A stretch of DNA of 64,000 bases from Candidatus Omnitrophota bacterium (GTDB taxonomy: Bacteria; Omnitrophota; Gorgyraeia; Gygaellales; Profunditerraquicolaceae), in contig QZKH01000006.1 of assembly GCA_003598025.1 (NCBI GenBank), positions 247,930-311,929 on the forward strand, given 5' to 3'. Under the pieces are notes generated by a model that ran no database searches, was not told the DNA's origin, and worked only from the letters and a program-made list of their open reading frames with translations. The position numbers and the translations under genes were made by a program. Positions 14,680 through 54,004 of this stretch are shown here, in pieces (positions within the stretch are counted from its first letter, which is position 1; each line of letters starts with the position of its first letter).

Positions 14680-14708
14680 TTGACCGCATTGGTTTTCAGT
14701 ATTAAAAT
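14680..14708 (+). promoter_or_regulatory. Candidate sigma70 promoter TTGACC-N17-TAAAAT for the 14725-19414 operon
   Basis: -35 at 14680-85, -10 at 14703-08, ATG at 14725. Confidence 0.4.
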
Positions 14709-14724
14709 TACTACTATAAATATT

Positions 14725-18023: not shown

Positions 18024-18433
18024 AAAACATAAAGTTAAATCACCTTTGTATAAGCTTTTTACTTGTATTTGTACTTTTTTTTAGTAATGGCTTATTATAT
18101 GCTAAAAGTACGGTTATTACTGATCTAGGTAACGAGGAACAGATGCATTGGGATTTTGGAAGAGTAAAGCAGGGGGTCGTATTAAAGCACATTTTTATTT
18201 TATCAAATGATTCAGGGCAGGACCTGATAATTAAAGACGTTACGACTTCTTGCGGTTGTACTGTTTCAAAGGTGAAGAAGAAAGCCCTTAAGCCTAAAGA
18301 GAGCACCGATATTGAAGTATCTTTTAACACAAAAGGATATTTTGGCAAAACCAGGCAGTTTGTTTATGTTGCCACAGATAATATAGAAGTTCCGGTTATA
18401 CGTTTTATCGTTGAGGCTGAAATTGTAAAGTAG
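18020..18433 (+). CDS. Secreted DUF1573-like protein
   Basis: Signal peptide present; 'VTTSCGCTVSKV...' is a DUF1573-type motif and the size is about 130 aa. The start overlaps the previous gene (ATGA). Confidence 0.55.
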   Translation: MKNIKLNHLCISFLLVFVLFFSNGLLYAKSTVITDLGNEEQMHWDFGRVKQGVVLKHIFILSNDSGQDLIIKDVTTSCGCTVSKVKKKALKPKESTDIEVSFNTKGYFGKTRQFVYVATDNIEVPVIRFIVEAEIVK

Positions 18434-21071: not shown

Positions 21072-22259
21072 ATGAAAGCGGAAATTTTTATCGGCCTCCG
21101 GTATTTATTGACTAAGCGTAAAGAGAAATTTATCTCTTTAATCAGCGTCCTTTCTATGTCGGGGATCGCAATAGGCGTCATGGCTTTGATAGTTGTTATC
21201 GGGGTTATGAACGGTTTTGACAGAGAATTAAGGGATAAAATCGTGGGAAATTTTTCCCATATCACAGTCTTCGGCTATGACGGTATAGAATCAATTTCTG
21301 CCAGCGCCCTGATTAAAGAAATAAGGTCTAACCCCGGGGTCAGGGATGTTTCAGAATATGTGCAGGGCCAGGTGTTGCTTAAAGAGGGTAATGCTATCTT
21401 TGCAGCGGACTTAAAAGGCATAGACCCAGAGCAGGAAATCAAAGTAACAAAAATAAAAGAATATTTAACCAGCGGCGATATCAATAACTTAAGAGGCGAT
21501 GCCGTGATCATCGGCAGAGAGATGGCCCTTTATCTTGGTGTCGGAGTCGGTTCCTATATAGACACGTATTCTTCTCAGGGTAAATTACGCAAGCTTAAGG
21601 TTTGCGGGATATTCAGCTCAGGCATGTATGATTATGATTTAAGGCTGGTATTCGTCAATATAACGACTGCACAGGAAATTTTTGGTATGCCGGATAGGAT
21701 TAGCGCCCTTGCTGTTAAACTGGATAATCTCTATCTTGCAGACAAAATAAAAGCAGAACTTGGTTCAAAGATAGGGCAGGATTACTATCTTAAAACCTGG
21801 ATGCAGTTAAATGAAAATTTCTTTGCCGCCCTTAAGCTGGAAAAGATTACGATGTTTTTAATATTGACGTTGATTATATTTGTGGCTGCTTTTAATATTG
21901 CAAGTACGTTAATAGTGATGGTGGTGGAAAAGACCAAGGATATAGGCGTATTAAGGGCTTTGGGTATGAGCGCCAAGGGAATACGCAATATTTTTACTTT
22001 CGTAGGCCTGTTTATCGGGACTATGGGCACTTTGATCGGAGGCCTTTCGGGGGTAGCTTTGTGCTTTATACTTAAGAAATACCAGTTTATTAGATTGCCA
22101 TCAGTTTATTCCATTGATAAATTGCCGGTATCAATTGTTTTCTGGCCGGACATAGTGGTAATTATCATTTCGGCATTATTTATTACGTTAATGTCAACGA
22201 TATATCCGGCAAGCAAGGCTGCAGGTTTTAAGCCGGTAGAAGCACTGCGTTACGAATAA
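21072..22259 (+). CDS. lolE: Lipoprotein-release ABC permease LolC/E (FtsX-like)
   Basis: Four TM helices with a large periplasmic loop and MacB/FtsX-like C-terminal TMs. It sits adjacent to lolD. Confidence 0.75.
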   Translation: MKAEIFIGLRYLLTKRKEKFISLISVLSMSGIAIGVMALIVVIGVMNGFDRELRDKIVGNFSHITVFGYDGIESISASALIKEIRSNPGVRDVSEYVQGQVLLKEGNAIFAADLKGIDPEQEIKVTKIKEYLTSGDINNLRGDAVIIGREMALYLGVGVGSYIDTYSSQGKLRKLKVCGIFSSGMYDYDLRLVFVNITTAQEIFGMPDRISALAVKLDNLYLADKIKAELGSKIGQDYYLKTWMQLNENFFAALKLEKITMFLILTLIIFVAAFNIASTLIVMVVEKTKDIGVLRALGMSAKGIRNIFTFVGLFIGTMGTLIGGLSGVALCFILKKYQFIRLPSVYSIDKLPVSIVFWPDIVVIIISALFITLMSTIYPASKAAGFKPVEALRYE

Positions 22260-22264
22260 CAACC

Positions 22265-22942
22265 ATGATAGAGGCCAAAGGAATTTATAAAAATTATATC
22301 ATAGACAGTAATAGGCTTGAGATACTTAAGGGCATAGATTTAAATGTTAAAAAAGGGGAGTTTATAACGATTGTCGGTCCTTCGGGAGCCGGCAAATCTA
22401 CTCTCCTGCATATCCTCGGAGGCTTAGATTCACCAAGCGAGGGTAAGGTGTCAATAGGCGGCCAGGATATTTACAGGATGGATGACCAGAAGATATCAAG
22501 GGTGAGGAATCAGAAAATAGGATTTGTTTTTCAGTTTTACCACTTGCTTTCCGAATTTACTGTTTTAGAAAATGCAGTATTACCTGTTTTTTTTAACGGT
22601 TCTTATACTAAGCCGCAGGCAGCAGAGATAAGAAATAAGGCGATCGGGCTTTTTGCTAATGTCGGCCTTTCAAACAGATTGAACCATTTCCCTATGCAGC
22701 TTTCCGGAGGTGAGAAGCAGAGGGTAGCCATTGTAAGGGCGTTGATGAATGACCCGCAGGTTTTATTATGCGACGAACCTACCGGTAATCTGGATTCAGC
22801 TTCCGGTAACCAGATAATGTCATTAATTAAAGACGTAAATTTAAAATCCAAGATGACAGTTATCCTGGTTACTCATAATCAGGAGCTGGCAAGTTTGGGT
22901 AACAGGATTTTTAATCTTAAAGACGGTGTTTTATTGAATTAA
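22265..22942 (+). CDS. lolD: Lipoprotein-release ABC ATPase
   Basis: Walker A 'GPSGAGKST', signature 'LSGGEKQRVAIVRAL' and Walker B 'LLCDEPTGNLD'. Confidence 0.85.
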   Translation: MIEAKGIYKNYIIDSNRLEILKGIDLNVKKGEFITIVGPSGAGKSTLLHILGGLDSPSEGKVSIGGQDIYRMDDQKISRVRNQKIGFVFQFYHLLSEFTVLENAVLPVFFNGSYTKPQAAEIRNKAIGLFANVGLSNRLNHFPMQLSGGEKQRVAIVRALMNDPQVLLCDEPTGNLDSASGNQIMSLIKDVNLKSKMTVILVTHNQELASLGNRIFNLKDGVLLN

Positions 22943-25438: not shown

Positions 25439-27850
25439 ATGTTTAACAGGTTCACAGAAAGAGCAAGAAAAGTAATCATTTTAGCTAAAGAAGAAGCCAG
25501 GCGTTTTAATCATGATTATATAGGCACTGAGCATATACTTCTTGGTTTGATCCGCGAAGGCGAAGGTGTAGCTGCAGCTGTTCTACAGAAGCTGGGGTTG
25601 TCTTTGGAGAACATACGCCTTGAGATAGAAAAACTCGTACAACCCGGGCCTACTACCCAGATAATCGGGGACATCCCTTTTACTCCCAGGTCGAAGAAGG
25701 CGCTTGAGCTTGCTGCAGAAGAGGCGCGTTCTTTAGGGCATAATTATATAGGCACTGAGCATATACTTCTTGGTTTGATCCGCGAAGGCGAAGGTGTAGC
25801 TTCGCAGGTACTTTTAAATCTGGGAGTGGATCTTAATACCGTGCGCAATGAGATCATGGAAGTCTTGGGGTCGGCCCTTCCCGGCTTTGGCCAGCAGCAG
25901 TCTAAAAGCAAAACGCCTGCACTGGATGCTTTCGGCAGGGACCTTACACAATTGGCTAAAGCAAACAAATTAGACCCGGTTATCGACAGGCACCAGGAGA
26001 TAGAAAGAGTTATACAGGTTTTGAGCAGGCGTACCAAGAATAATCCTGTTTTACTCGGTGAAGCAGGGGTAGGTAAGACTGCTATAGTCGAAGGCTTGGC
26101 ACAGTCTATTGTTTCTGGGAATGTCCCGGAGATATTGAGGAATAAGAGGATTGTGGTTTTAGATTTGGCAATGATGATCGCTGGAACAAAATACCGCGGC
26201 CAGTTTGAGGAAAGGATAAAAGCGGTAATGGAAGAGATCAAGCGTTCACAGGATGTAATCATTTTTATTGATGAGTTGCATACTTTAGTCGGAGCCGGTG
26301 CTGCCGAAGGAGCAATTGATGCTTCCAATATTCTCAAGCCCGCACTTTCACGCGGCGAGATACAGTGTATCGGAGCCACAACCATGGATGAATACAGGAA
26401 GTATATTGAGAAAGATGCTGCGCTTGAGAGGCGTTTCCAAACTATAATGGTAGAGCCGCCCTCTGTCCTGCAGACCGTAGAGATACTTAAGGGCTTAAGA
26501 GATAAATATGAGGCTCACCATCGGGTTACTTTTAAGGATGAGGCTTTAGAAGCTGCTGCAAAATTATCAGACCGGTATATCACGGGCAGGTTTTTGCCTG
26601 ATAAGGCGATTGATTTGATTGATGAGGCCGGTTCGCGCTCAAGGTTAAATGTTTTAGTCGTCCCTCCGGAAATAAAAGAGTTAGAAAAAAAGGTCGAGGT
26701 CTTAAAGAAGGAAAAAGAAGCTTATATCAAGAGCCAGGATTTTGAGAAAGCAGCTTCATTGCGTGACCAGGAGAGGCAGGCAAGGCTGGAACTGGAAGAG
26801 TTGAATCAGAAATGGGGGCAGACAAAAGACAGGACCAGGCCTGAGGTCGCGGAGGAAGATATCGCAAGGATTGTTTCTCAGTGGACAGGCATACCGATAT
26901 TCCGCCTTGAAGAAAAAGAAAGCGAAAAGCTTCTTAAGATTGAAGAAGTCTTACATAACAGGGTTATCGGTCAGAATGAGGCGATCTCTGCTATAGCAAA
27001 TGCGATAAGGCGTTCAAGGGCAGGTATAAAAGACCCAAAGAGGCCTATAGGTTCTTTTATATTCTTAGGCCCTACCGGTGTCGGCAAGACTTTGCTTGCC
27101 AGGGCACTGGCAGAGTTTATGTTCGGCGATGAGGATGCACTCCTGCAGCTGGATATGTCTGAGTATATGGAGAAATTTAATGTTTCCCGTTTAGTAGGCG
27201 CACCTCCGGGTTATGTAGGTTATGAAGAAGGAGGGCAACTGACTGAAAGGGTCAGAAGAAGGCCTTATGCAGTTATTCTCTTTGATGAGATCGAGAAGGC
27301 GCATCCGGATGTTTTTAATCTTTTGCTGCAGGTTTTTGAAGAAGGCAGGCTTACTGATAGCTTTGGCAGAAAAGTGGATTTCAGAAACACGGTCATTATT
27401 ATGACCTCAAATGTCGGAGCGGAGCTGATTAAAAAGAGCGTTTCTTTGGGTTTTAAAGCGCAAAAAGAAGAGGTTACTTACGAGGAGATGAAAGATAAGC
27501 TTCTTGAAGAGGTTAAAAAAACCTTTAAGCCTGAGTTCATCAACCGCGTAGATGATATTATAGTGTTTAGGTCGTTATTAAGGGCAGATCTTGAGAAGAT
27601 CGTTGATCTTGAAGTAGGCCATGTTGCTGATAGGTTAAAAGATAAAAATATAAAGCTTGATATCCGTCCGGATGCCAAAGATTTTATAATCGAGAAAGGT
27701 TTTGATCCGGTATTCGGGGCAAGGCCGTTAAAGAGGATAATACAGAGGTTCCTTGAGGATCCCTTAGCTTCTGAAATAATCTCAGGCAGGTTCAAGGACG
27801 GAGCCACTGTCCGAGTTTCCCGTAAAAATGAGGAGCTAGTTTTAGAATGA
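25439..27850 (+). CDS. clpC: ATP-dependent Clp protease ATP-binding subunit ClpC (class III AAA+)
   Basis: Two Clp_N repeats, AAA1 with 'GEAGVGKTA', a UVR-like linker and AAA2 with 'GPTGVGKT'. Total length 803 aa. Confidence 0.9.
25515..25573 (+). repeat. 59-bp perfect direct repeat, copy 1 (Clp_N repeat 1 coding sequence)
   Basis: Identical 59-mer at 25515-25573 and 25743-25801. With flanks the match is 62/63 bp over 25511-25573 versus 25739-25801. Confidence 0.9.
25743..25801 (+). repeat. 59-bp perfect direct repeat, copy 2 (Clp_N repeat 2 coding sequence)
   Basis: Encodes '[19 protein letters not shown]', as does copy 1. Confidence 0.9.
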
Positions 27851-28632
27851 TTAAACGCCTGTTCGTAATCTTCGGCAGAAGAATCCTTTATTTTATGTAT
27901 TTTCTGGGAGGTTTAAGCAATCTGGCTATGCAGACTATTTATCGCATCTTTACTCCTCCCTACAAGAAGCACAGGATTTTTGAGCAGGCTAAAAAAGCCG
28001 GTTACGACAGCCTGCCGATAGTCTCTTTGATATCCCTGTTTATCGGGTTTATCTTTGCGTTACAGACAGCATATTTTATGCAGCGCATAGGCTCTGAACT
28101 TTATATTGCAAGCATGGTTGCTCTATCTTTAGTCAGGGAATTGAGCCCGGTCATTACGGCTTTGGTAGTAGCAGGCAGGGTCGGCGCATCTATCACTGCC
28201 GAGTTAGGCTCTATGCAGGTTACTGAGCAGATCGATGCTTTGGAGTCATTTGCATCGAATCCGATAAAATACCTGGTTGTGCCGCGTTTTCTAGCTTTGA
28301 CTTTTATGCTTCCGTTGCTTACTCTTTATTCTAACGCCATAGGCATATTCGGGAGCTTTCTGATATGCACAGCAAAACTGGGGATATCCTCCAGTATTTA
28401 TATGCATGTTACTTTTGACGCCTTGCAATATAAAGATCTTTTTACCGGCTTATTTAAGTCCGTTGTCTTCGGTATGATAATAGCGTTAGTCAGTTGTTAT
28501 GAAGGCTTTAATGTCGAGGGCGGCGCCGAAGGAGTAGGGCGGGCAACTACCCGCTCGGTAGTTATAACTTTTATTTTGATTATTATTGCGGATTGCTTCT
28601 TTACCGCTTTATTTTATTTTATTTTTCCTTAG
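27847..28632 (+). CDS. mlaE: Mla/Ttg2-type ABC permease
   Basis: MlaE-family permease with five TMs ('[39 protein letters not shown]'). Confidence 0.8.
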
Positions 28633-28643
28633 AGAGGTAAGAG

Positions 28644-29396
28644 ATGATCGATATTATGAATGTATGCAAATCATTTGGCGAGCATAAGGTTTTAGATGAA
28701 CTCAGCCTTAAGGTTGAGACCGGCACTACATGTGTGATCATAGGCCGTTCAGGCTGCGGAAAGTCAGTATTATTGAAACATATCGTGGGTTTATTAAGGC
28801 CGGATAAAGGGAGCATCTTCGTAGACAAGAAAGAAGTAAATAAATTAAAGGACGCAGAAATAAATCAGCTGCGCATGAAAATAGCTATGGTTTTTCAGGG
28901 CGGAGCGTTATTTGATTCAATGACCGTGGGCGAGAATGTAGGCTTCGGCCTTATAGAGCATCAAAGTATAGGTCATAAGGAATTGCTGGAACGCATTGAG
29001 GAATCACTTTGCCTGGTTGGTCTTTGCGGCATCGGGAATCTTATGCCTTCAGAACTAAGCGGAGGCATGAAAAAGCGCGTGGCGCTTGCCAGGGCGATTT
29101 GTCTTAAGCCGGAAATCATACTTTATGATGAACCGACTACAGGGGTTGACCCGATTACCGCCGATAGTATTAATGACCTTATCAGGAGCCTGCATGATAA
29201 ATTGAAGGTCACATCTATCGTGGTTACTCATGATATGAAGAGTGCCTATAAAGTAGCAGACAGGATAGCTATGATGTATCGCGGCAAGATAATAGCAGAA
29301 GGGACTTCTGAAGAAATACAGAATGCAAAACACCCGGTTGTCCATCAGTTTGTCAACGGCCTGGCATATGGGCCGATTACGGAGACTTTAGGCTAA
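28644..29396 (+). CDS. mlaF: Mla-type ABC ATPase
   Basis: Walker A 'GRSGCGKSV', 'LSGGMKKRVALARA' and Walker B 'ILYDEPTTGVDP'. Confidence 0.85.
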   Translation: MIDIMNVCKSFGEHKVLDELSLKVETGTTCVIIGRSGCGKSVLLKHIVGLLRPDKGSIFVDKKEVNKLKDAEINQLRMKIAMVFQGGALFDSMTVGENVGFGLIEHQSIGHKELLERIEESLCLVGLCGIGNLMPSELSGGMKKRVALARAICLKPEIILYDEPTTGVDPITADSINDLIRSLHDKLKVTSIVVTHDMKSAYKVADRIAMMYRGKIIAEGTSEEIQNAKHPVVHQFVNGLAYGPITETLG

Positions 29397-29434
29397 ATTT
29401 ATCTGGACATTATTTAAAATAACGGAGGTTATCT

Positions 29435-30058
29435 ATGATATTCGGAAAAACAAAATTAGAAATGAAAGTCGGTATTTTCGTTTTTCTGGGAATAGTTATT
29501 TTATCTGTGTTTGTCCTGTCCCTTGGTGGCTTCAGGACATGGACTTCTGGTTATGAGGTAAGTTTTATATTTAATTTTGTAAACGGTATCAAGGTAGGGG
29601 CACCGGTCAGGTTTGCCGGAGTTGATGTCGGCGAGGTAAAAAATATTACTTTCGTGGCGCCAAATAACCCAACAGATCCGATAAAGACAAATATCCGTTG
29701 CTGGGTTAATAAAAATATTAAAATTCCGATGGATTCTACGATCTGGGTTAATACTCTCGGTTTACTGGGTGAGAAATACCTGGAGATAATGCCGGGTAAA
29801 GATTATGCCAATACCTTAGCCAAAGGTGCATCTCTTGACGGAGAGGATCCCTTACCTATGCATGAGGTCGTAAAATTAGCAAATAATATAGCTACTAATC
29901 TTGATGAAAGCATAGCCAAGATTAATCACGGTCAAGGCACCGTAGGTAAGCTTCTGTATGATGATGCGATATATAAAGAGATAGAGGCTCTATCTATGGA
30001 TTTAAGACGCAACCCCTGGAAATTATTCTGGAAGACAAAGGAAAAGCCTTTGAAATGA
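29435..30058 (+). CDS. mlaD: MCE-domain substrate-binding protein
   Basis: An N-terminal TM then the MCE core 'GIKVGAPVRFAGVDVGEV'. Confidence 0.7.
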   Translation: MIFGKTKLEMKVGIFVFLGIVILSVFVLSLGGFRTWTSGYEVSFIFNFVNGIKVGAPVRFAGVDVGEVKNITFVAPNNPTDPIKTNIRCWVNKNIKIPMDSTIWVNTLGLLGEKYLEIMPGKDYANTLAKGASLDGEDPLPMHEVVKLANNIATNLDESIAKINHGQGTVGKLLYDDAIYKEIEALSMDLRRNPWKLFWKTKEKPLK

Positions 30059-46631: not shown

Positions 46632-47735
46632 TTAGGGTATTTTACTTATTAAATACAGGCCGATGCTTAGAGCGATGATATGGCTTAGTGTTGCTGCAGT
46701 TAAGGGGGGCAGTACTCCTTTTTTCCCCAAGGCTATACTTACCGCATTCATGCCATAATAGAGGAATCCCATCATAATTGATAACCCCAATGATGATATC
46801 CCCGCAGCACGCCTTCTTATAACGAATGAGAACGGTATCCCCAGGATTATTATTACCAGGCTGGTAAACGGAGAGGCAAATCTCTGGAAGAGCTCTACCT
46901 TGAGGTTGTTTATGACGTTTTCTGCCCCGCTTTTTGACAGCCTCCATATGTAATCATCAATTTGCGCGATGGTCATTAGATCTGTCCGCTGTCTTTGGCT
47001 AAGAAAGTCTTTTGGGGTTTCAGCTATGGCCATTATTTCCTGGTCAAAATAAACCGGCTCATCTTTAATCTGGCCGTTCTGGTCGAAATTATAGGTTATA
47101 CACTGAAAAAATTTCCATAACCCATTCTCATATACCCCTTTAGAGGCCACTATTTTCTTTACTATATTCTGTTTCTGATCTTGCTCGAGTATGGTGATCC
47201 CAAACATGGTATTCGTGGCAACGGAAAATCTCTTAATGAAAAAAAGCCTGTTTCTCAACCCATACATGGAAAGATTAGTGATATCCTCCTGTTTTGTTTC
47301 TGTTGATTTCTTTGGGTTGCTTTTTTCCATATCTTCTTTTATTGCTTCCGTAGTCGCGGAGGCATTCGGGACAAATTTGTCATTTACCCAAAATACAAGC
47401 ATGCTTATTATAGCTCCGAAGAGCACCACTGTTTTAGTAATCTGGAATATACTCATCCCTGCAGAGCGCATTGCAATAAGCTCATTGCTGGTATTTAGCT
47501 TGCTAAAGGTATATAGCGTGCTCAATAGGCATGATATGGGCGTGACTTGGACAAATATTATCGGCAAAAATGAAAGGTAATATTTAATCAATACAGATAA
47601 TCCTACTTTCATTTTAAGGAAATCATCCAAGTGCGAGAATATATCTACGACTACATAGAGGAAAAGGAATGTCAGGGTGCAGCCGATAAATATCCCGACT
47701 ACAGATTTTAAAATATATCTATCTAGTATGCGCAT
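46632..47735 (-). CDS. lptG: LPS export ABC permease, YjgP/YjgQ family (downstream copy, lptG-like)
   Basis: Six-TM YjgP/YjgQ topology with a periplasmic beta-jellyroll loop. It pairs with the adjacent upstream paralogue. Confidence 0.65.
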   Translation of the reverse strand: MRILDRYILKSVVGIFIGCTLTFLFLYVVVDIFSHLDDFLKMKVGLSVLIKYYLSFLPIIFVQVTPISCLLSTLYTFSKLNTSNELIAMRSAGMSIFQITKTVVLFGAIISMLVFWVNDKFVPNASATTEAIKEDMEKSNPKKSTETKQEDITNLSMYGLRNRLFFIKRFSVATNTMFGITILEQDQKQNIVKKIVASKGVYENGLWKFFQCITYNFDQNGQIKDEPVYFDQEIMAIAETPKDFLSQRQRTDLMTIAQIDDYIWRLSKSGAENVINNLKVELFQRFASPFTSLVIIILGIPFSFVIRRRAAGISSLGLSIMMGFLYYGMNAVSIALGKKGVLPPLTAATLSHIIALSIGLYLISKIP

Positions 47736-48820
47736 ATTTTATAGGTAAGAAAGGCGCCGATTAAGATAAATAAAATATTTGGCAGCCACATAGCGATCAT
47801 CGGATCCATTTGCCCCTGTAAACTCAAGGCTTCTGAGCCCATTAATAAAAGGTAGTATATACCTACGACGACAAACGCTATGCCGAAGTTGATGGATTTT
47901 TCCCTTCTTTTTGTCATGATCGCAAGAGGCACACCTAAAAGTATGAAGACAAAACAGGAGAAGGCCAGTGATATTTTCTTGTTTATTTCGGTTATAAGAG
48001 GAGAGGGGTCAATACCTTCCTTTTTGACGGTATTTACTTCCTTTTTAAGCTCTTGTATTGTCATATCTTTAGGTTTTTTGTTTATCTCTTTGCTATCCTG
48101 GGCATTATTCATATTCAGGGTCATGAAGTAGGTCTTAAAGTTGAGTTTGTAAAAATTACTTGGGTTTTCAGGGTCAGGTTCATCAGAACTCCCGTCAATC
48201 AATTTAAGCTTGACCATATTTTTTTCTGGATCTGCAACAAATTCGCCTCTTTTTGCAACGATTGTCCTGGTCGGTTTATCATCTCCCTGGGGTTCATATA
48301 TACGTATGTTGCTTAATTTATTCTGATCAATACGATAGATAAATAAAATATATTTCTCAAAGGAATCAATGAAGACCCCGGGTTCAAGGGCAGCGGCAGG
48401 GTTTTTAATCCCTACTTCAATGAGAGTTTTTCTTGCCGCGAAATGTGCATAGGGGATAACCCTGTCGTTAAAGACCACCAGGACCAGGCTGAGGAGTGTG
48501 CCGGTAATCAGAAGGGGAAAAATAAGTTTAAAAAGGTTAATTCCGCTTGCCTTAATAGCGATTATTTCATTATCGCTGGATAACCTGCCAAGGGAGAGTA
48601 AAACGGCGGTCAATGCTGATATTGGCAGGGTGTAGGTTAACAAGTAAGGCGCCATAAATAAGAACAGTTTTGCTACATTGAAGATATCAACACCCTTATT
48701 GATTATCAGGTCGGCGATCTTGATCAGATTACCGATAAGCATTACGAAAGTAAGGACCCCCAGGCTTAAAAATAAAGGGCCCAAGAATTCTTTTAAAAAG
48801 TAATCTCTGAGTATTTTCAT
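47723..48820 (-). CDS. lptF: LPS export ABC permease, YjgP/YjgQ family (upstream copy, lptF-like)
   Basis: Same family as the neighbour. The stop/start overlap indicates translational coupling. Confidence 0.65.
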   Translation of the reverse strand: MKILRDYFLKEFLGPLFLSLGVLTFVMLIGNLIKIADLIINKGVDIFNVAKLFLFMAPYLLTYTLPISALTAVLLSLGRLSSDNEIIAIKASGINLFKLIFPLLITGTLLSLVLVVFNDRVIPYAHFAARKTLIEVGIKNPAAALEPGVFIDSFEKYILFIYRIDQNKLSNIRIYEPQGDDKPTRTIVAKRGEFVADPEKNMVKLKLIDGSSDEPDPENPSNFYKLNFKTYFMTLNMNNAQDSKEINKKPKDMTIQELKKEVNTVKKEGIDPSPLITEINKKISLAFSCFVFILLGVPLAIMTKRREKSINFGIAFVVVGIYYLLLMGSEALSLQGQMDPMIAMWLPNILFILIGAFLTYKICAY

Positions 48821-48822
48821 AT

Positions 48823-49551
48823 TTAATTTGCTAGCGTTAAGGCAAATACTATATTAGCTCCGGATTTTTTTAAAACACAGGCTGCTTCAGAAAGAGTAGC
48901 GCCGGTTGTAAACACATCATCTACGAGCAGTATATTCTTGCCCTTGATTGCAGAGGTCTCTATTGTGCGGAAAGCGTTCTTGATATTTATAAAACGCTCT
49001 TGTCCGTTAAGTTCTGCCTGTGATCTGGTGTTGACTACTCTAGATAAGGCGTTGTTTAAGACAGGTTTACTTAATATCATGGAAAGACGTTCCGCTAAGA
49101 GCTGCGACTGGTTAAATTCCCTTTCTCTGAGCCGTGCGTTGTTTAGCGGTATAGGAACCAGGAAATCTATAAACCTGATCGGTATCTCATATTCGTTAAT
49201 AAAATTAATCAGTAGGTTCGCCAGCGGCTTATTTAAAAATTTTTTATTATTATATTTAAAATTATGTATCAATTTTTTTATAGCCCCTTCATATCTGTAC
49301 GGGCTGAAGGCGCGGTCAAAATAAACGTTTGACCTTACGCATCCATCACAAATACTTTTATTAATATTTTTTCTCTGGAGTTGCCTTCCGCATTGCTGGC
49401 AAAATGGCGGTTTATTTCTGCCGATTTTTTCCCAGCATTTTAAGCAGATCAGTTTTTCAATGGAGGCATCTTCCGATATTTTTGTATTACAAGCGATGCA
49501 AACCCTGGGATAAATAATGTCTTTTATGCCCTTTAAGAGGCTAATAAACAT
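48823..49551 (-). CDS. comF: ComF-family protein (zinc-finger plus phosphoribosyltransferase domain)
   Basis: N-terminal CxxC pairs 'CIACN...CLKCW...CQQCG' and a C-terminal PRTase block 'ILLVDDVFTTGATLSEA'. Confidence 0.75.
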   Translation of the reverse strand: MFISLLKGIKDIIYPRVCIACNTKISEDASIEKLICLKCWEKIGRNKPPFCQQCGRQLQRKNINKSICDGCVRSNVYFDRAFSPYRYEGAIKKLIHNFKYNNKKFLNKPLANLLINFINEYEIPIRFIDFLVPIPLNNARLREREFNQSQLLAERLSMILSKPVLNNALSRVVNTRSQAELNGQERFINIKNAFRTIETSAIKGKNILLVDDVFTTGATLSEAACVLKKSGANIVFALTLAN

Positions 49552-49588
49552 AACGATATGATACCAATGAAATAATGCTTTGTCAAAA

Positions 49589-49710
49589 GGTTATAGATAG
49601 TTCATAGATAATGGTTCATAGTTCATGGTTCATAGATCATAGATAATCTCTATTTCTTCGAATGCGACTATCAACCATGGACAATGAACCCTGCCTACCG
49701 GCAGGCAGGC
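49589..49710. repeat. Composite intergenic repeat element, copy 3
   Basis: Heptads GGTTATA GATAGTTCATAGATAATG GTTCATA GTTCATG GTTCATA GATCATA GATAATC at 49589-49648. Then ...CATGGACAATGAACC CCTGCC-TACC-GGCAGG at 49690-49705. The 17-mer ATGAACCCTGCCTACCG is shared exactly with copy 2. The element ends 14 nt before the pyrE -35 element. Confidence 0.7.
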
Positions 49711-49723
49711 GTGAACTAACTCA

Positions 49724-49752
49724 TTGACACTCCCAAAACAGGATAGTACAAT
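49724..49752 (+). promoter_or_regulatory. Near-consensus sigma70 promoter TTGACA-N17-TACAAT, 8 nt upstream of the pyrE ATG (leaderless)
   Basis: -35 at 49724-29, -10 at 49747-52. The ATG at 49761 has no SD sequence ahead of it. Confidence 0.45.
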
Positions 49753-49760
49753 ATTAATTT

Positions 49761-50327
49761 ATGGAAACCCAGTTAAGGGATATAAACTATTATCGAGGGC
49801 GGTTGCATTCTCTTTTAAAAAGAGAGGCGCTCAAGAAAGGGAAGTTTGTGCTATCTTCAGGAAAAGAAAGCACTTATTATTTAGATGGGCGCATAGTCAC
49901 CCTTTCTTCAGAAGGGGCTTATTTAGTAGCTAAGATTATCATCGAAATGATCAAAGGATTGAATATATCTGCTGTAGGAGGGCCCACCCTGGGAGCTGAC
50001 CCGATCGTAGGGGCCCTGGCCGCAATCAGCTACCTGGAGAAAAGCCCGGTGAATACTTTTATTGTTCGTAAATCTGCAAAGGGCCACGGCATGCAGAGGC
50101 TAATCGAAGGCCCTAAGTTGAATCCGGGGGCTAAAGTTGTTCTTGTTGACGATGTTGCTACTACAGGCAAAGCTATAATTGAAGCTAAGGCAGCTTTGGA
50201 CCAAGCCGGCCTGAAAGCGGATACTGCAATTGTCGTTGTCGATAGATGCGAGGGTGCGGATAAGAACCTTTCTGAACACGGAATAGTTTTAAAGCCAATT
50301 TTCAAAATATCTGATTTTGATATTTAA
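49761..50327 (+). CDS. pyrE: Orotate phosphoribosyltransferase
   Basis: 'KVVLVDDVATTGKAI' PRPP-binding motif, 188 aa. Confidence 0.8.
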   Translation: METQLRDINYYRGRLHSLLKREALKKGKFVLSSGKESTYYLDGRIVTLSSEGAYLVAKIIIEMIKGLNISAVGGPTLGADPIVGALAAISYLEKSPVNTFIVRKSAKGHGMQRLIEGPKLNPGAKVVLVDDVATTGKAIIEAKAALDQAGLKADTAIVVVDRCEGADKNLSEHGIVLKPIFKISDFDI

Positions 50328-50350: not shown

Positions 50351-51589
50351 ATGCAAAAAATCATCGTAATAGGCGCTGGCCCTGCAGGGATGATGGCTGC
50401 TATAAAGGCATCTCAGTCAGGCACACCGGTAACTCTTATTGAACAGAACCCTTCCTTAGGCAAGAAACTTCTTATAAGCGGTAAAGGCCGCTGCAATCTT
50501 ACCAATGCGGTCGAATTAGAACAATTCCTGGCCAGGTTTTCTAATAATGGCGAATTCTTAAGGGACGCCTTTAAAGTATTCTTTAATAAAGAGTTAATAG
50601 AATTTTTCCAAAGCAGAGGCCTCGGGATAAAGGTCGAGAGGCAGCAGCGCGTCTTTCCCGCTACCGATGATTCTGCAAGTATAGTTCAGGTACTGGCGCG
50701 CGAACTTAAGGCAAGTAAGGTAAAAATAATGTTTTCTACGCCGGTCAAAGATGTAATAGCTGAGGATGGTATGGTCAGAGGGGTAAGGCTTTTTGATAAC
50801 AGTTTGCTTGAGACGGATCGATTGATAATGGCAACAGGAGGAATTTCGTATAGCTTTACCGGTTCCGACGGTAAGGGCATAAAGATTGCCCTGAGGCTTG
50901 GGCACAGGGTTGTTGCTTTAAGGCCGGGATTGGTAGCTTTAGATACAGCTGAAGATTTTATCAAAGATTTAGCAGGCATAACTTTAAAAAATATCCGTTT
51001 ACGTTTTAAAGGGGATAAAAAGAGCATTGTATCAGATATAGGGGAGATTCTTTTTACGCATACTGGTATTTCCGGACCACTTGTGTTTACTTATAGCGGC
51101 AGGATAGTAGATTGGCTTAAGGACGCAAAAGAGGTCGTTGTCGAAATAGACCTTAAGCCAGCCTTATCGGATGACCAGCTTAACCTGCGATTGTTGAGGG
51201 ATTTTAAAGGAAATGGCAAGAAAGCTATCAAGAATGTGCTTAAGCTTTCTTTACCACAGAGGTTAATAAGTGTTTTTCTTTCTCTGTCCGGTATTGACGG
51301 GGATAAGAAAATAAGCTATATCTCGGCAGAGGAGAGGAAAAAACTTTGTAGTTTGTTTAAGTCATTTACGTTGAGGCTGGTTAAACCCAGGCCTATAGAA
51401 GAGGCAATGATCACTCGGGGAGGGGTGTCTCTTAAAGACATTAACCCGCGTACTATGGAATCTAAGATTGTCAAAGGATTGTATTTTGCAGGCGAAATGA
51501 TAGATGTTGATGCTGATACAGGAGGATTTAATCTGCAGGCAGCTTTTTCTACCGGATATTTAGCCGGTAAAAGCGCTTCAGCCAGTTAA
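50351..51589 (+). CDS. HI0933/BaiN-family FAD-dependent flavoprotein
   Basis: 'IIVIGAGPAGMMAAI' dinucleotide fold and 'GKGRCNLTN'. Confidence 0.75.
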   Translation: MQKIIVIGAGPAGMMAAIKASQSGTPVTLIEQNPSLGKKLLISGKGRCNLTNAVELEQFLARFSNNGEFLRDAFKVFFNKELIEFFQSRGLGIKVERQQRVFPATDDSASIVQVLARELKASKVKIMFSTPVKDVIAEDGMVRGVRLFDNSLLETDRLIMATGGISYSFTGSDGKGIKIALRLGHRVVALRPGLVALDTAEDFIKDLAGITLKNIRLRFKGDKKSIVSDIGEILFTHTGISGPLVFTYSGRIVDWLKDAKEVVVEIDLKPALSDDQLNLRLLRDFKGNGKKAIKNVLKLSLPQRLISVFLSLSGIDGDKKISYISAEERKKLCSLFKSFTLRLVKPRPIEEAMITRGGVSLKDINPRTMESKIVKGLYFAGEMIDVDADTGGFNLQAAFSTGYLAGKSASAS

Positions 51590-51590
51590 T

Positions 51591-52928
51591 ATGGAATTAA
51601 TATATTTAGCTTCCAGATCTGCTGCAAGAAGAAAGTTGTTAAAGAGCCTTGGTTTACGTTTTAGGGTTGTTCCTGCCAGGATCAACGAAATAATGCATTC
51701 TCCTTCAAGAAACTATCCTCATATAGTTAAAGCGAATGCTTTGATGAAAGCAGAATCTGTTGCCCGAAAGATAAAGAAAGGCATCGTAATCGGAGCTGAT
51801 ACTATAGTTGTACAGGGAAATACAGTCTATGGCAAACCCAGGACTCTTAAAGAGGCAAAAAGGATGCTTATCAGGCTTTCAAGTAAACCTCACTGGGTCT
51901 ATTCCGGTTTTGCAATAATTGACCTAGAACGCAATATAAGAAAGACAGGTTATGATAAAACAAAGGTCTATATGGATAAATTAAGCCCTAAACAGCTTAA
52001 GGATTATTTTTCAAAGGTGCACCCCTTAAGCATGGCCGGAGGTTTCGATATCCAGGGCCAGGGTGCACTTTTTATACGTAAAATAAATGGTTGTTTTTAT
52101 ACGGTGGTGGGTATACCTATCAGTAAGCTATTCGCTGCTTTAAGAAAAATCGGAATATTATTATTTTTATTTGTTTTACCCGTACTAATAAGCGGTTGTT
52201 CTACGGAGTATAACATAGTGACAGGCAGGCAGGAGGCCTATTTTTACAGTACGGACAAAGAGATACAAATGGGAAAGAACATTTCAAAAGAAGTAGAGAA
52301 AGAATATAAGCTTGATGAAGACCCTTTGGTCCAAAAGCGGGTAAGGGATATAGGCAAAAAGATAGCTCTTGTCTGCGACAGGAAGGACGTAAGTTATATT
52401 TTTAATGTTATTGATGATGAAGAGGTAAATGCCTTTGCCTTACCCGGAGGTTTTGTATATGTTAATAAAGGGCTCATTGATAAAGTTGATAATGACGATG
52501 AGCTGGCTGCGGTATTAGCCCATGAAGTAGCTCATGTAGTTGCCAGGCACAGCATAAAGAAATTGCAGGCAGTAATGGGGTATTCTCTTTTAAGGATTGC
52601 TGTTGCAAGCGTGCCTGATTCTTCCGGTGCAGGTACAGCAGCAGATTATGCTTTTACTGAGATACTTTTAGGTTATTCGCGAGATGATGAATTGCTTGCC
52701 GACCAGCTTGGCGCACGATATACAGCTTTGGCAGGGTATAAACCAGGAGCGATGATAGATTTCCTGGAAAAGCTCCAGGAGATTAATAAAAGAAAACCGC
52801 TTAGGCCAAAAAATTACTTTAAGACGCACCCCTATGTTCCTGATAGGATACGGATAGTCAAGCAGGAGCTCGGACAGGATATGGACTTTAACGATTATAT
52901 TAATATTGAAGAAATAAAGAAAAAATGA
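51591..52928 (+). CDS. maf: In-frame fusion of a Maf nucleoside-triphosphate pyrophosphatase (aa 1-188) to a YcaL/LoiP-like M48 metalloprotease (aa about 190-445), joined through a lipoprotein-type signal/TM segment
   Basis: A full Maf domain ('IYLASRSAARRKLL...GADTIVV...') runs without a stop into 'LRKIGILLFLFVLPVLISGC' (lipobox ISGC). An M48 core follows ('HEVAHVVARH' HExxH and 'SRDDELLAD'). No canonical start codon precedes the signal peptide. Confidence 0.65.
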   Translation: MELIYLASRSAARRKLLKSLGLRFRVVPARINEIMHSPSRNYPHIVKANALMKAESVARKIKKGIVIGADTIVVQGNTVYGKPRTLKEAKRMLIRLSSKPHWVYSGFAIIDLERNIRKTGYDKTKVYMDKLSPKQLKDYFSKVHPLSMAGGFDIQGQGALFIRKINGCFYTVVGIPISKLFAALRKIGILLFLFVLPVLISGCSTEYNIVTGRQEAYFYSTDKEIQMGKNISKEVEKEYKLDEDPLVQKRVRDIGKKIALVCDRKDVSYIFNVIDDEEVNAFALPGGFVYVNKGLIDKVDNDDELAAVLAHEVAHVVARHSIKKLQAVMGYSLLRIAVASVPDSSGAGTAADYAFTEILLGYSRDDELLADQLGARYTALAGYKPGAMIDFLEKLQEINKRKPLRPKNYFKTHPYVPDRIRIVKQELGQDMDFNDYINIEEIKKK

Positions 52929-54004
52929 AGAAGGCTGCAGTCATTTTACTTATGTTATCAGTTTTTATCTCTTTTTATTGTAATATTTATGCGCAAAATT
53001 CCGGAGGAAACATTATGAATGATAAAAAGAATCCTTTTGGTGTCCTTGAGTTTTTCCATTGGAACCACGCATGGAACAAATATAAATATAACAATACCGA
53101 TACTATTAAGAAATCGGTGGCGCTTTTAAAGGAAGCCGGCATAGGTATAGTGCGATTGGATTTTTTATGGTCTGATATTGAACCTTTTCAGGGCAAATTA
53201 AACTTTAGCAAATACGATGATATAGTAACTATTCTAACCGATAACGGTGTTGAAATACTGGGGATACTTAACTATAGCACTGATTGGGCTTCACCGGATA
53301 AGAAATGGAATTCTCCGTCAACTGACAATGGCATGTTCATTAATTATGTTACAGAAGTCGTGAAAAGATATAAAGATAAGGTAAGCTATTGGGAGATCTG
53401 GAATGAGCCAGACTCTCATATCTACTGGTCGCCCCAGGATGGATTGAAGCAGTATTGCAGCTTGCTTAAGGATTCTTATAAGAAAATAAAGGAGATAGCT
53501 CCGCAAAGCATAGTGTTAAACGGCGGCCTGGCTAATGGCCCGGCAAGTGTAAACAGGCTTTACGATAATGGGGCAAAAGATTATTTTGACGTGATGAACA
53601 TACATATTTTTGATTCTCCATTAATAGAAGGGTCGTCAGTGAGGGTACTTTCTCAAATAAGGCTGACTGAGAAAATAATGCGCAGGAATAATGATTCTGA
53701 TAAGCCTATTTGGATAACTGAGTTGGGTTGCCCGGGAGTTGCCCCCGGTATAAAGACTAAGGATTGGTGGATGGGCAAGAACCCCAGCGAAGAAGAGCAG
53801 GCTGCCTGGCTTAAGGAAGTATATGCAAAAATATTGAAAGAGACTCAGGTCGAGCGCATTTTCTGGGCATTTTTCAGGGATTGTAAAGACCACTGGAAAG
53901 ATGGGGTCGATTATCTGGGTTTAATAAGATGGGATTTTTCAGCTAAGCCAGCCTTTGCCGAGTATAAGAAAATCATCTCTTCTTGGAATAATTTACAGCG
54001 GTAA
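52925..54004 (+). CDS. Secreted clan GH-A glycoside hydrolase (GH5/GH39-like TIM barrel)
   Basis: Signal peptide, acid/base 'WEIWNEP' and nucleophile 'ITELGCPG' motifs. Confidence 0.6.
   Translation: MKKAAVILLMLSVFISFYCNIYAQNSGGNIMNDKKNPFGVLEFFHWNHAWNKYKYNNTDTIKKSVALLKEAGIGIVRLDFLWSDIEPFQGKLNFSKYDDIVTILTDNGVEILGILNYSTDWASPDKKWNSPSTDNGMFINYVTEVVKRYKDKVSYWEIWNEPDSHIYWSPQDGLKQYCSLLKDSYKKIKEIAPQSIVLNGGLANGPASVNRLYDNGAKDYFDVMNIHIFDSPLIEGSSVRVLSQIRLTEKIMRRNNDSDKPIWITELGCPGVAPGIKTKDWWMGKNPSEEEQAAWLKEVYAKILKETQVERIFWAFFRDCKDHWKDGVDYLGLIRWDFSAKPAFAEYKKIISSWNNLQR

What the first reader, a model, noticed from the sequence alone, without database searches (positions are those of the whole stretch)
51591..52928. 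In-frame Maf::M48-lipoprotein fusion across a lipobox signal peptide
A complete Maf (septum-formation / nucleotide pyrophosphatase) domain of 188 aa reads through, with no stop codon, into a classical lipoprotein signal peptide and then a complete M48 protease.
- The signal peptide is LRKIGILLFLFVLPVLISGC (lipobox ISGC).
- The M48 part is YcaL/LoiP-like (HEVAHVVARH plus a downstream Glu).
- No canonical start codon precedes the signal peptide, so the protease cannot be made independently from this sequence.

The predicted topology is a cytoplasmic Maf, a TM helix and a periplasmic M48. This is either a genuine bifunctional membrane protein coupling a cytoplasmic NTP-pyrophosphatase to an envelope protease, or a recent loss of the stop and start codons, or a sequencing artefact.
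Basis: seen in the sequence. Interest (0 to 1): 0.5.

Follow-up and report, generated by a model that had tools for sequence, protein, structure and literature searches.

The report
Conserved Maf–lipoprotein protease gene fusion
A cytoplasmic nucleotide-cleaning enzyme (Maf) and an exported, lipid-anchored M48 protease are encoded as one reading frame joined through the protease's own export signal; this is real and shared by well over 80 Omnitrophota species, and the intact cleavage motif suggests the cell cuts the product back into two proteins.

Summary
ORF 51591-52928 (+), 445 aa, holds a full Maf domain, then a lipoprotein-type signal (Cys203), then a full M48 domain, with no stop.

It is neither an artefact nor a recent accident. 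All 120 best database homologues and the 80 best species-representative loci kept have the same open frame. A 43%-identical relative has the same fusion at the same chromosomal position.

In a sister Omnitrophota group, maf and the M48 lipoprotein gene are adjacent but separate: stop codon, 10-11 nt spacer with a Shine-Dalgarno-like sequence, and an ATG. Split and fused forms occur among close relatives. So the fusion arose from operon neighbours, probably more than once.

The lipobox and Cys are kept in 200/200 fused sequences. The mature N-terminus (C-S-T-E-Y-N) matches that of standalone lipoprotein relatives. The hydrophobic stretch has signal-peptide length.

The window and 17 other species have no canonical start codon between the end of Maf and the signal. 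There the fusion is the only route to the protease.

Best reading: a precursor inserted with Maf inside the cell, lipidated and cut by signal peptidase II. This gives a Maf with a hydrophobic tail and a normal M48 lipoprotein. The cleavage is inferred, not shown. NCBI already names the architecture; I found no study of it.

The parts
51591..52928 (+). Whole fused ORF, 445 aa. ATG start lies one base after the stop of the upstream HI0933-like flavoprotein gene. The TGA stop overlaps the ATG of the next gene (ATGA at 52925-52928).
51600..52148 (+). Maf nucleotide pyrophosphatase domain (residues 4-186). The Maf signature S10-R13-E33-K53-D70-K82 is kept. The subfamily positions read A12-T71-Q155, which is YhdE-like with Arg12 replaced by Ala.
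   Evidence: signature definition from PMC3899018
52104..52109 (+). GTG-GTG (V172, V173). These are the only canonical in-frame start candidates within 30 codons upstream of Cys203. They sit inside the conserved Maf motif NVVG and have no SD-like core upstream.
52140..52196 (+). Internal lipoprotein-type signal peptide, L184-G202. The n-region (L-R-K) is the end of Maf's own C-terminal helix. The h-region is IGILLFLFVLPVL and the lipobox is I-S-G before Cys203. A183 (52137-52139), one codon upstream of this part, stands where most relatives have Met.
   Evidence: AlphaFold pLDDT below 50 over residues 193-217
52197..52199 (+). Codon of Cys203. This is the predicted diacylglyceryl-modified first residue of the mature lipoprotein. 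It is invariant in 200/200 fused relatives.
52200..52925 (+). Mature M48 metalloprotease after Cys203 (residues 204-445). The Pfam M48 domain covers residues 246-425 (52326-52865). The N-terminus STEYNIVTG is shared with standalone M48 lipoproteins.
52521..52535 (+). Zinc-binding motif H311-E312-V-A-H315. H311, E312 and H315 are invariant in the family.
52689..52691 (+). Glu367, in the segment R-D-D-E-L-L-A-D. Probable third zinc ligand. Invariant in the family.

Best explanation
**What the gene is (shown).** It is an old, conserved in-frame fusion of two operon neighbours of Omnitrophota: maf, encoding a cytoplasmic nucleotide pyrophosphatase, and the gene just downstream, encoding an M48 metalloprotease made as a lipoprotein.
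- The fusion removed maf's stop codon, the short spacer with its ribosome-binding site, and the start and n-region of the protease's signal peptide.
- Maf's own basic C-terminal helix now runs straight into the hydrophobic core and lipobox of that signal.

**How it most likely works (inferred).**
1. The 445-aa product is made as one chain.
2. Maf folds in the cytoplasm.
3. The hydrophobic segment (residues 187-200) enters the Sec translocon with its N-terminus inside, and the M48 part is exported.
4. Lgt lipidates Cys203 and signal peptidase II (LspA) cuts between Gly202 and Cys203.

**Predicted products (inferred).**
- A normal mature M48 lipoprotein of 243 aa. It has Ser at +2, so it may be passed to the outer membrane by the Lol-like transporter encoded in the same window.
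- A Maf that keeps the signal peptide as a C-terminal hydrophobic tail. This tail could tether it to the inner face of the membrane or be trimmed away.

**Why such fusions recur (inferred).** The cut restores both proteins, so the fusion costs little. That would explain why it arose repeatedly and persists in these small genomes. It need not mean that the two enzymes work together.
For: **The fusion is real and old**
- All 120 best homologues carry both Pfam domains at 61-66% identity.
- All 80 best GTDB species loci match query residues 1-441 or more, except a few matches that begin at residue 2-7 (one at a contig end). All have an uninterrupted frame across the junction.
- P0122, at 43% identity, is fused and lies in the same neighbourhood: TsaE, TsaD, Alr, LptF/G, ComF-like, PRTase, then the fusion (window).

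**Origin from neighbouring genes**
- L088 and L089 carry maf (192 aa, with a stop), a 10-11 nt spacer containing AGAGG or GGAGG, an ATG, the M48 lipoprotein (MTARLSLACCFLPVILLLSGC|SGISSNFNTAT) and then DUF192.
- L090 has the fused form with the same mature N-terminus.
- Split and fused genes are each other's closest relatives. Split L089 is 81/73% identical (Maf/M48) to fused P0303, but only 77/67% to split L088.

**The junction is kept as a cleavable signal**
- Gly202 and Cys203 are invariant.
- The pattern [LIVFM]-x-[GSA]-C holds in about nine of ten of the 200 sequences, and [GSA]-Cys in all 200.
- The uncharged stretch is 10-24 aa (median 17), which is signal-peptide length. Its sequence is otherwise free to vary.
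- Standalone relatives (P0125, P0131, P0137) are N-terminal lipoproteins with the same C-[SA]-T-E-Y-N start.

**A parallel case**
- In related Omnitrophota, Maf is fused to the next exported protein, DUF192. Those junctions keep a signal-peptidase-I motif (e.g. VQA|A, CHA|D) or a lipobox.

**Full-length translation is needed**
- 18 of 81 species, including the window, have no ATG/GTG/TTG between the end of Maf and the h-region. Nine more have only GTG or TTG.
- The Met seen in the other species is native to standalone Maf (49/55 sequences), so it is not a sign of an internal start.

**Both enzymes look active**
- The Maf signature S-R-E-K-D-K and the M48 HExxH plus Glu are invariant or nearly so (PMC3899018).

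**Envelope context in the window**
- LolCE-like and LolD-like genes, LptF/G and MlaEFD are present.
- Ordinary N-terminal lipoproteins occur in related loci.

**Precedent**
- Processing of internalised prolipoprotein signal sequences was studied by Hayashi et al., J Biol Chem 1985;260:5753. The title was verified in the reference list of PMC2114505. That they are modified and cleaved is my recollection.
Against: - No direct evidence of cleavage or lipidation exists. Nothing here is proteomic or biochemical.
They could not be searched for across the genome.
- The Lol-like hits fall below NCBIfam's curated cut-offs: 347.7 against 362.45 bits, and 257.8 against 307.75 bits.
- In many clade members the uncharged stretch is 19-20 aa. 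That is long enough for a stable membrane anchor.
- 55 of 81 species have an in-frame ATG seven codons after the Maf G-x-P motif. Some have a good SD-like sequence encoded by Arg-Arg or Arg-Lys codons, for example AAGGAGG N9 ATG in L025, L027 and L055. An independently translated lipoprotein may therefore coexist with the fusion in those species.
- The AlphaFold model is uninformative at the junction.
Confidence: 0.6

Rival explanations
1. Permanent bifunctional membrane protein. The hydrophobic segment is an uncleaved type II anchor that holds Maf on the cytoplasmic face and M48 on the periplasmic face of the inner membrane, possibly linking the two activities.
For: - The fusion has been kept over long evolutionary time, and both catalytic signatures are intact.
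- Many members have a 19-20 aa uncharged stretch.
- There is no linker, so Maf would sit tightly against the membrane.
Against: - An anchor does not need a lipobox, yet Gly-Cys is invariant in 200/200 sequences. The Maf::DUF192 fusions likewise keep A-x-A-type or lipobox cleavage sites.
- Many members have only 10-14 uncharged residues, too short for a stable anchor.
- The split form, with an ordinary N-terminal lipoprotein, occurs in close relatives (81/73% identity). Physical linkage is therefore not needed for function.
Confidence: 0.17
2. Two proteins from two starts. The protease is translated on its own from an internal start codon inside the maf frame, and the read-through fusion is a minor or irrelevant by-product.
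For: - 55 of 81 species have ATG at the position that would give M-L-K-K-L-G-I-K plus the h-region and lipobox, which is an ideal lipoprotein signal.
- 16 of those 55 have an SD-like core upstream.
- About a third of long ORFs in the window have an SD-like core upstream, against a 16% background. The organism therefore uses SD sequences to some extent.
Against: - The window has Ala (GCT) at that position and no canonical start in the 30 codons before Cys203, apart from GTG-GTG in the NVVG motif without an SD.
- 18 of 81 species have no candidate start at all, and these form multi-species subclades.
- The Met is equally conserved in standalone Maf (49/55), where no internal start is needed.
- SD-like cores are not clearly commoner with ATG (16/55) than without (4/26).
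- With no stop codon, ribosomes that start at maf must make the fusion in any case.
- No promoter-like site lies near the junction beyond chance.
Confidence: 0.1
3. Assembly or sequencing error, or a decaying pseudogene, in this one genome.
For: None beyond the prior that metagenome bins contain indels. The exact protein is found on only 2 contigs.
Against: - The same frame continuity holds in the 80 best species genomes kept and the 120 best homologues listed.
- Active-site residues of both domains are invariant.
- The gene sits in a tight operon, with a one-base gap upstream and an ATGA overlap downstream.
Confidence: 0.01

Closest known systems
Maf / YhdE-type nucleotide pyrophosphatases (B. 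subtilis Maf, PDB 1EX2/4HEB; E. coli YhdE, PDB 4P0E)
   Same: - Full-length match: query residues 4-188 align to residues 5-186 of the 189-aa B. subtilis protein (E 5e-30).
- All six signature residues S-R-E-K-D-K are present, as are T71 and Q155 of the YhdE subfamily motif (PMC3899018).
   Different: - Arg12 of the YhdE motif is Ala, invariantly in this clade. YhdE R12A kept near-normal activity on dTTP according to PMC3899018.
- The protein does not stop after its C-terminal helix. It continues into a signal peptide and an exported protease.
Small M48 lipoprotein proteases of the outer-membrane quality-control type (E. coli LoiP/YggG and YcaL; protease domain of BepA; Geobacter M48 structure PDB 3C37)
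   Same: - M48 fold with HExxH plus Glu.
- Best solved relative is 3C37 (E 2e-37, residues 219-429). BepA's protease domain matches at 1.6e-20.
- Mature size is about 240 aa, and a lipobox Cys sits at the start of the mature part, as in LoiP and YcaL. That LoiP and YcaL are lipoproteins is from my own knowledge.
   Different: - Scores are far below the NCBIfam equivalog/exception cut-offs for BepA (116 against 570) and LoiP (60 against 365).
- There is no TPR domain.
- The signal peptide is internal, at residues 184-203, behind a 183-residue enzyme.
Split maf / M48-lipoprotein / DUF192 operon of other Omnitrophota (L088, L089)
   Same: - Same genes, same order and same neighbours.
- The same kind of lipobox and mature N-terminus. 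Identity to the window protein is 44-48% in both halves.
   Different: A stop codon, a 10-11 nt spacer with an SD-like sequence, an ATG and a separate n-region (MTAR.., MTRFFR..) lie between the two genes.
Internal cleavable signal sequences: engineered internalised prolipoprotein signals (Hayashi et al. 1985, J Biol Chem 260:5753) and the Bradyrhizobium FbcH cytochrome b-c1 precursor
   Same: A signal peptide that is not at the N-terminus, is still used for export, and is cut by a signal peptidase so that one chain gives two proteins.
   Different: - The first is a laboratory construct.
- The second is cut by signal peptidase I and follows a polytopic membrane protein, not a soluble enzyme.
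- The details of both are from my memory. Only the title of the 1985 paper was verified here.
Human ASMTL (Maf domain fused to a methyltransferase-like domain; PDB 2P5X)
   Same: Another natural fusion with Maf as the N-terminal domain.
   Different: Both halves of ASMTL are cytosolic. It has no signal peptide, and the partner domain is unrelated.

Membership tests
Maf family (Pfam PF02545 / TIGR00172) | Profile match over the whole domain, above the curated cut-off | tested here: met
   PF02545 scores 165.8 bits against a cut-off of 27, covering 2-186 of 187 positions. TIGR00172 scores 157 bits against 117.15.
Maf family | Signature residues S-R-E-K-D-K (YhdE Ser10, Arg13, Glu33, Lys52, Asp70, Lys82; PMC3899018) | tested here: met
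   S10, R13, K53, D70 and K82 are invariant and E33 is at least 90% conserved in 120 fused sequences. The motif definition was read.
YhdE subfamily of Maf | Subfamily motif R12-T71-Q153 | tested here: not met
   T71 and Q155 are invariant, but position 12 is an invariant Ala (alignment). It is not the YceF motif (W-Q-E) either. Best described as YhdE-like.
Peptidase family M48 (PF01435) | Profile match above the cut-off, plus HExxH and a downstream Glu | tested here: met
   121.9 bits against a cut-off of 20.3, covering 2-184 of 186 positions. H311, E312, H315 and E367 are invariant.
BepA (NF052400) and LoiP (NF052399) | Score at or above the curated equivalog/exception cut-off; for BepA also a C-terminal TPR domain | tested here: not met
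   BepA scores 116.1 against 570 and matches only profile positions 40-250 of 483. LoiP scores 60.3 against 365.
Bacterial lipoprotein precursor (signal peptidase II substrate) | Lipobox [LVI]-[ASTVI]-[GAS]-C after a hydrophobic core and a basic n-region | tested here: met
   The window reads R185-K186, then IGILLFLFVLPVL, then I-S-G-C203. [GSA]-Cys is kept in 200/200 relatives.
Bacterial lipoprotein precursor | Signal peptide at the N-terminus of the translated chain (Cys within roughly the first 15-40 residues) | tested here: not met
   Cys is residue 203. There is no canonical start within 30 codons upstream except GTG172/173. Split relatives do meet this feature.
Bacterial lipoprotein precursor | Actual diacylglyceryl modification by Lgt and cleavage by LspA | not testable with these tools
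   Needs biochemistry or proteomics. lgt and lspA were not found in the ~0.9 Mb of Omnitrophota DNA held here. Genomes were not searched as wholes.
Gene fusion of operon neighbours | The two halves exist as adjacent separate genes, in the same order, in related genomes | tested here: met
   L088 and L089 are split; L090, L081 and the window are fused; all share the upstream PRTase and LptF/G neighbourhood.

The most novel reading that the evidence does not exclude
Omnitrophota repeatedly fuse a cytoplasmic enzyme in frame to the signal peptide of the next exported protein, and rely on signal peptidases to undo the fusion after translation.
- Maf::M48 fusions would be cut at a lipobox by signal peptidase II.
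- Maf::DUF192 fusions would be cut at signal-peptidase-I sites.

This would be a natural bacterial 'polyprotein' resolved by signal peptidase II. As a side effect it would turn Maf into a tail-anchored membrane protein. That could place nucleotide house-cleaning or division control at the membrane.
Probability: 0.45. Interest if true: 0.6.

Novelty: new variant of a known kind. Interest (0 to 1): 0.48.

Why it matters
- **Export biology.** If the cut occurs, this is a widespread natural case of a lipoprotein signal peptide working from the middle of a chain, behind a folded 180-residue enzyme. It bears on how Sec, Lgt and LspA recognise their substrates.
- **A natural comparison.** Close relatives carry the split and the fused form. 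This allows a direct test of whether such fusions are neutral products of deletion bias in very small genomes or bring a benefit, such as fixed stoichiometry or membrane tethering of Maf.
- **Annotation.** Most of these genes are labelled only 'septum formation protein Maf'. That hides an envelope protease, so pipelines looking for N-terminal signals would miss these lipoproteins.
- **A caution.** A conserved fusion need not mean the two activities are functionally linked.

Tried and rejected
- **Met as a relic or internal start.** I first read the in-frame Met upstream of the hydrophobic core (ATG in 55/81 species) as a relic or a working internal start for the protease. Rejected as evidence: standalone Omnitrophota Maf proteins have the same Met in 49/55 cases, and 26/81 fused species lack it.
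- **SD enrichment before that ATG.** 16/55 with ATG against 4/26 without. No clear difference.
- **AlphaFold2 on the 120-sequence alignment.** Mean pLDDT 72.8. The two domains are modelled, but the junction (residues 193-217) scores below 50. This says nothing decisive about anchor versus signal, so no fold search was run.
- **Motif search for LspA and Lgt** in the window and all fetched loci: nothing found. This is uninformative, because only about 0.9 Mb of mostly syntenic DNA was held.
- **Lipobox scan of window ORFs:** none found apart from the internal one. Ten N-terminal examples turned up in related loci.
- **Literature.**
  - Maf + M48 + Omnitrophota gave only MAFFT mentions.
  - 'Internal lipobox' and similar phrases gave zero papers.
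  - LspA or Lol in Omnitrophota gave nothing relevant.
- **Promoter and terminator scan of 51400-53100:** nothing above chance near the junction.
- **Names for divergent relatives.** The cluster look-up returned none.
- **Tree caveat.** The neighbour-joining tree of Maf domains has low resolution. I rely on the pairwise identities for the claim that split and fused forms interleave.
Full report
**1. The observation**

The window holds one ORF at 51591..52928 (+), 445 aa, starting with ATG.
- Pfam places a complete Maf domain at residues 4-186 (E 1.2e-48) and a complete Peptidase_M48 domain at 246-425 (E 3.5e-35). NCBIfam agrees: Maf family TIGR00172 is above its cut-off, while the BepA and LoiP models match only weakly.
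- Between the domains the sequence reads ...NGCFYTVVGIPISKLFAALRKIGILLFLFVLPVLISGC(203)STEYNIVTG.... This is a basic stretch, a hydrophobic core, a lipobox (I-S-G-C) and no stop codon.
- The gene is packed tightly. Its ATG lies one base after the stop of an HI0933-like flavoprotein gene. Its TGA overlaps the ATG of a secreted glycoside-hydrolase-like gene.
One refinement: B. subtilis Maf (189 aa) aligns up to query residue 188, three residues from its own end. There is therefore no linker. The end of Maf's C-terminal helix (L-R-K) is itself the n-region of the signal.

**2. Not an artefact and not recent**

- A search of 5.8 billion proteins returned an identical protein from a Candidatus Omnitrophota MAG. 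The best 120 hits are all 441-478 aa, 61-66% identical and carry both Pfam domains. NCBI names some of them 'Maf and M48 domain-containing protein'.
- A scan of one genome per GTDB species gave 572 matching stretches. The 80 best loci kept all match the query essentially end to end, from residue 1-7 to residue 440-445.
- I checked the DNA of each locus. The frame is open from before Maf to the end of M48 in every one.
- A much more distant relative, P0122 (43% identity), is also fused. It sits in the same neighbourhood as the window gene: TsaE, TsaD, alanine racemase, LptF/LptG, a ComF-like protein, a phosphoribosyltransferase, then the fusion (window).
- Most record titles say Omnitrophota. 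A few say Planctomycetales, Margulisiibacteriota or Patescibacteria, but their proteins are about 60% identical to the window protein, like the rest. I take those labels to be binning or taxonomy noise.

**3. Where the fusion came from**

A search with a Maf relative showed that Omnitrophota have this locus in several states.
- **Split.** In L088 and L089 the order is phosphoribosyltransferase, maf (192 aa, ending ...MLKKFDIHAL-stop), a 10-11 nt spacer with AGAGG or GGAGG, ATG, an M48 lipoprotein of 272-273 aa (MTARLSLACCFLPVILLLSGC|SGISSNFNTAT...) and then DUF192.
- **Fused to M48.** In L090 maf and M48 are fused (...HFGVRAL-MLVFLFAPVIGC|SGLSTNFNTAT...) and DUF192 follows as a separate gene.
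- **M48 absent.** In L085 and L086 M48 is missing, and maf is followed by DUF192 with an ordinary signal-peptidase-I signal. In L086 the two genes overlap by ATGA.
- **Fused to DUF192.** In L087 and about 17 other protein clusters maf is fused to DUF192 (Pfam check).

The fusion is thus a deletion-type joining of operon neighbours that removes the stop, the spacer, the start and the n-region.

Within this second group, split and fused genes are each other's nearest relatives.
- Split L089 is 81/73% identical (Maf/M48) to fused P0303, but 77/67% to split L088.
- Split L088 is 82/64% identical to fused P0302.
- A neighbour-joining tree of Maf domains shows the same interleaving.

The state has therefore changed several times. 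The window's own clade forms one group in that tree and is fused in the 80 best loci that were kept and examined.

Such genomes exist, but they show the ancestry of the fusion, not an error in it.

**4. The junction is kept as a cleavable signal**

- Gly202 and Cys203 are invariant in the alignment of 120 proteins.
- Over 200 fused sequences (120 proteins plus 80 loci), every one has [G/S/A]-Cys. About nine in ten have L/I/V/F/M at position -3 (LSGC 92, LAGC 17, ISGC 15, LTGC 15, and so on).
- The residues after Cys are ST in 156 cases.
- The uncharged stretch from the last charged residue to the Cys is 10-24 aa, median 17. Its sequence and length otherwise vary freely. That is how signal peptides evolve, not how functional transmembrane helices evolve.
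- The nearest standalone M48 relatives are N-terminal lipoproteins with the same mature start: P0125 MQRLFILVALGFFLCGC|ATEYNLATG and P0131 ...LFLISGC|MSTSYNVATG.
- The Maf::DUF192 fusions likewise keep a signal-peptidase-I site (VQA|A, CHA|D, AWA|A, SHA|Q) or a lipobox (CSGC, ASGC) at the junction.

Three kinds of junction all retain a peptidase site. This is the strongest argument that the chains are cut.

**5. Could the protease be made on its own?**

- In 55 of 81 species the codon seven residues after the Maf G-x-P motif is ATG, which would give an ideal signal (M-L-K-K-L-G-I-K...). In 22 species it is an Ile codon. In the window it is GCT (Ala183).
- 18 of 81 species have no ATG/GTG/TTG anywhere between the end of Maf and the hydrophobic core. 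These include multi-species subclades.
- The Met is not a mark of a start codon, because standalone Omnitrophota Maf proteins have it in 49 of 55 cases.
- SD-like cores upstream are not clearly commoner where the ATG is present: 16/55 against 4/26.
- In the window the only canonical candidates are GTG-GTG at 52104-52109. They lie in the conserved NVVG motif and have no SD-like core.
- No promoter-like or terminator-like site stands out near the junction.

So in this genome the fusion is the only evident route to the protease. In ATG-bearing species some independent initiation cannot be excluded.

**6. Both halves look functional**

- The Maf signature defined by Tchigvintsev et al. (Ser10, Arg13, Glu33, Lys52, Asp70, Lys82; PMC3899018) is matched by S10, R13, E33, K53, D70 and K82. 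All are invariant or nearly so.
- The subfamily positions read A12-T71-Q155, which is YhdE-like apart from Ala for Arg12. The same paper reports that YhdE R12A keeps near-normal activity on dTTP.
- In the M48 half, H311, E312, H315 and E367 are invariant.
- The best solved relative is the Geobacter M48 protein 3C37 (E 2e-37), followed by the protease domain of BepA.

**7. Cell-envelope context**

The same window encodes several envelope systems.
- LptF and LptG (46632-48820, minus strand).
- MlaE, an ABC ATPase and MlaD (27847-30058).
- A LolCE-like permease (21072-22259; 347.7 bits against a cut-off of 362.45).
- A LolD-like ATPase (22265-22942; 257.8 bits against 307.75).

So this is a double-membraned organism that probably sorts lipoproteins. 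Ordinary N-terminal lipoproteins are present in related loci. I could not find lgt or lspA in the DNA held here, and whole genomes could not be searched. This premise remains untested.

**8. Most likely mechanism**

The gene structure, its origin and its conservation are shown. The following steps are inferred.
1. The chain is made whole and Maf folds in the cytoplasm.
2. The hydrophobic segment engages Sec with its N-terminus inside, and M48 is exported.
3. Lgt and LspA act at Cys203.
4. This releases a normal M48 lipoprotein and leaves Maf with a hydrophobic C-terminal tail.

Laboratory work on internalised prolipoprotein signals (Hayashi et al. 1985) suggests the enzymes tolerate N-terminal extensions. 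The title was verified; the outcome is from my memory.

Because the cut restores both proteins, such fusions should cost little. That fits their repeated origin and their coexistence with split forms in close relatives. I see no evidence that Maf and M48 act together.

I put 0.6 on this model, 0.17 on an uncleaved bitopic enzyme, 0.1 on mainly separate translation and 0.01 on an artefact.

**9. What is known, and novelty**

- Both domains belong to well-known families, and fusion of operon neighbours is common.
- The architecture is already in public databases under a generic NCBI name.
- I found no paper on it, and none using terms such as 'internal lipobox'.
- What is unusual is an exported lipoprotein whose signal peptide sits behind a complete cytoplasmic enzyme. 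It is conserved in well over 80 species, has a parallel in Maf::DUF192, and has split counterparts available for comparison.
- I class it as a new variant of a known kind. It is of moderate interest, mainly to people who study protein export and genome streamlining.

Noticed in passing
L087:5001-5987; also proteins P0245 and P0285-P0301: A second family of Maf fusions in Omnitrophota: Maf joined in frame to the exported DUF192 (PF02643) protein through a signal peptide. The junction keeps either a signal-peptidase-I site (e.g. VQA|A) or a lipobox. In L085 and L086 the same two genes are separate, with an ATGA overlap in L086.
   Followed up: partly
L088:4001-5926 and L089:4001-5836: Split form of the locus in other Omnitrophota: maf, an M48 lipoprotein with its own SD-like sequence and ATG, then DUF192. 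P0285 (Maf::DUF192) shares its signal and lipobox with Maf::M48 proteins such as P0303. It may have arisen by deletion of the M48 part.
   Followed up: partly
window 18455-19414 (+): A second M48 protease in the window. It is HtpX-like (NF002669, 223.7 bits, below the cut-off of 341) and unrelated in role to the fused one. It follows a DUF1573 protein at 18020-18433.
   Followed up: partly
window 21072-22942 (+): LolCE-like permease and LolD-like ATPase just downstream of lysS (19625-21067). Both score just below NCBIfam's curated cut-offs. Only one permease gene is present, not a LolC/LolE pair.
   Followed up: partly
window 27847-30058 (+) and 46632-48820 (-): MlaE / ABC ATPase / MlaD genes and LptF / LptG genes. 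This is an outer-membrane lipid and LPS transport set, so the organism is double-membraned.
   Followed up: no
window 48823-50327: A divergently oriented pair: a ComF-like gene (double zinc ribbon plus phosphoribosyltransferase) and a small phosphoribosyltransferase gene. A phosphoribosyltransferase gene lies upstream of maf in all ten Omnitrophota loci for which gene calls were obtained, and the ComF-like gene in most of them, whether maf is split or fused. In the window an HI0933-like flavoprotein gene (50351-51589) is inserted between it and maf.
   Followed up: partly
L001, L009, L011, L012, L026, L028, L045 (record titles): Several genomes carrying a ~60%-identical copy of this Omnitrophota-type fusion are labelled Planctomycetales, Margulisiibacteriota or Patescibacteria in their public records. 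This is probably taxonomy or binning noise.
   Followed up: no
window 15178-16842 (+): A 554-aa TPR-rich protein whose best NCBIfam hit is the magnetosome protein MamA (108.9 bits against a cut-off of 200). This is most likely generic TPR similarity.
   Followed up: no
window 16839-18023 (+) and 14680-15174 (+): Two ORFs (394 aa and 164 aa) with no family hit in the one library each was searched against: NCBIfam for the first, Pfam for the second.
   Followed up: no
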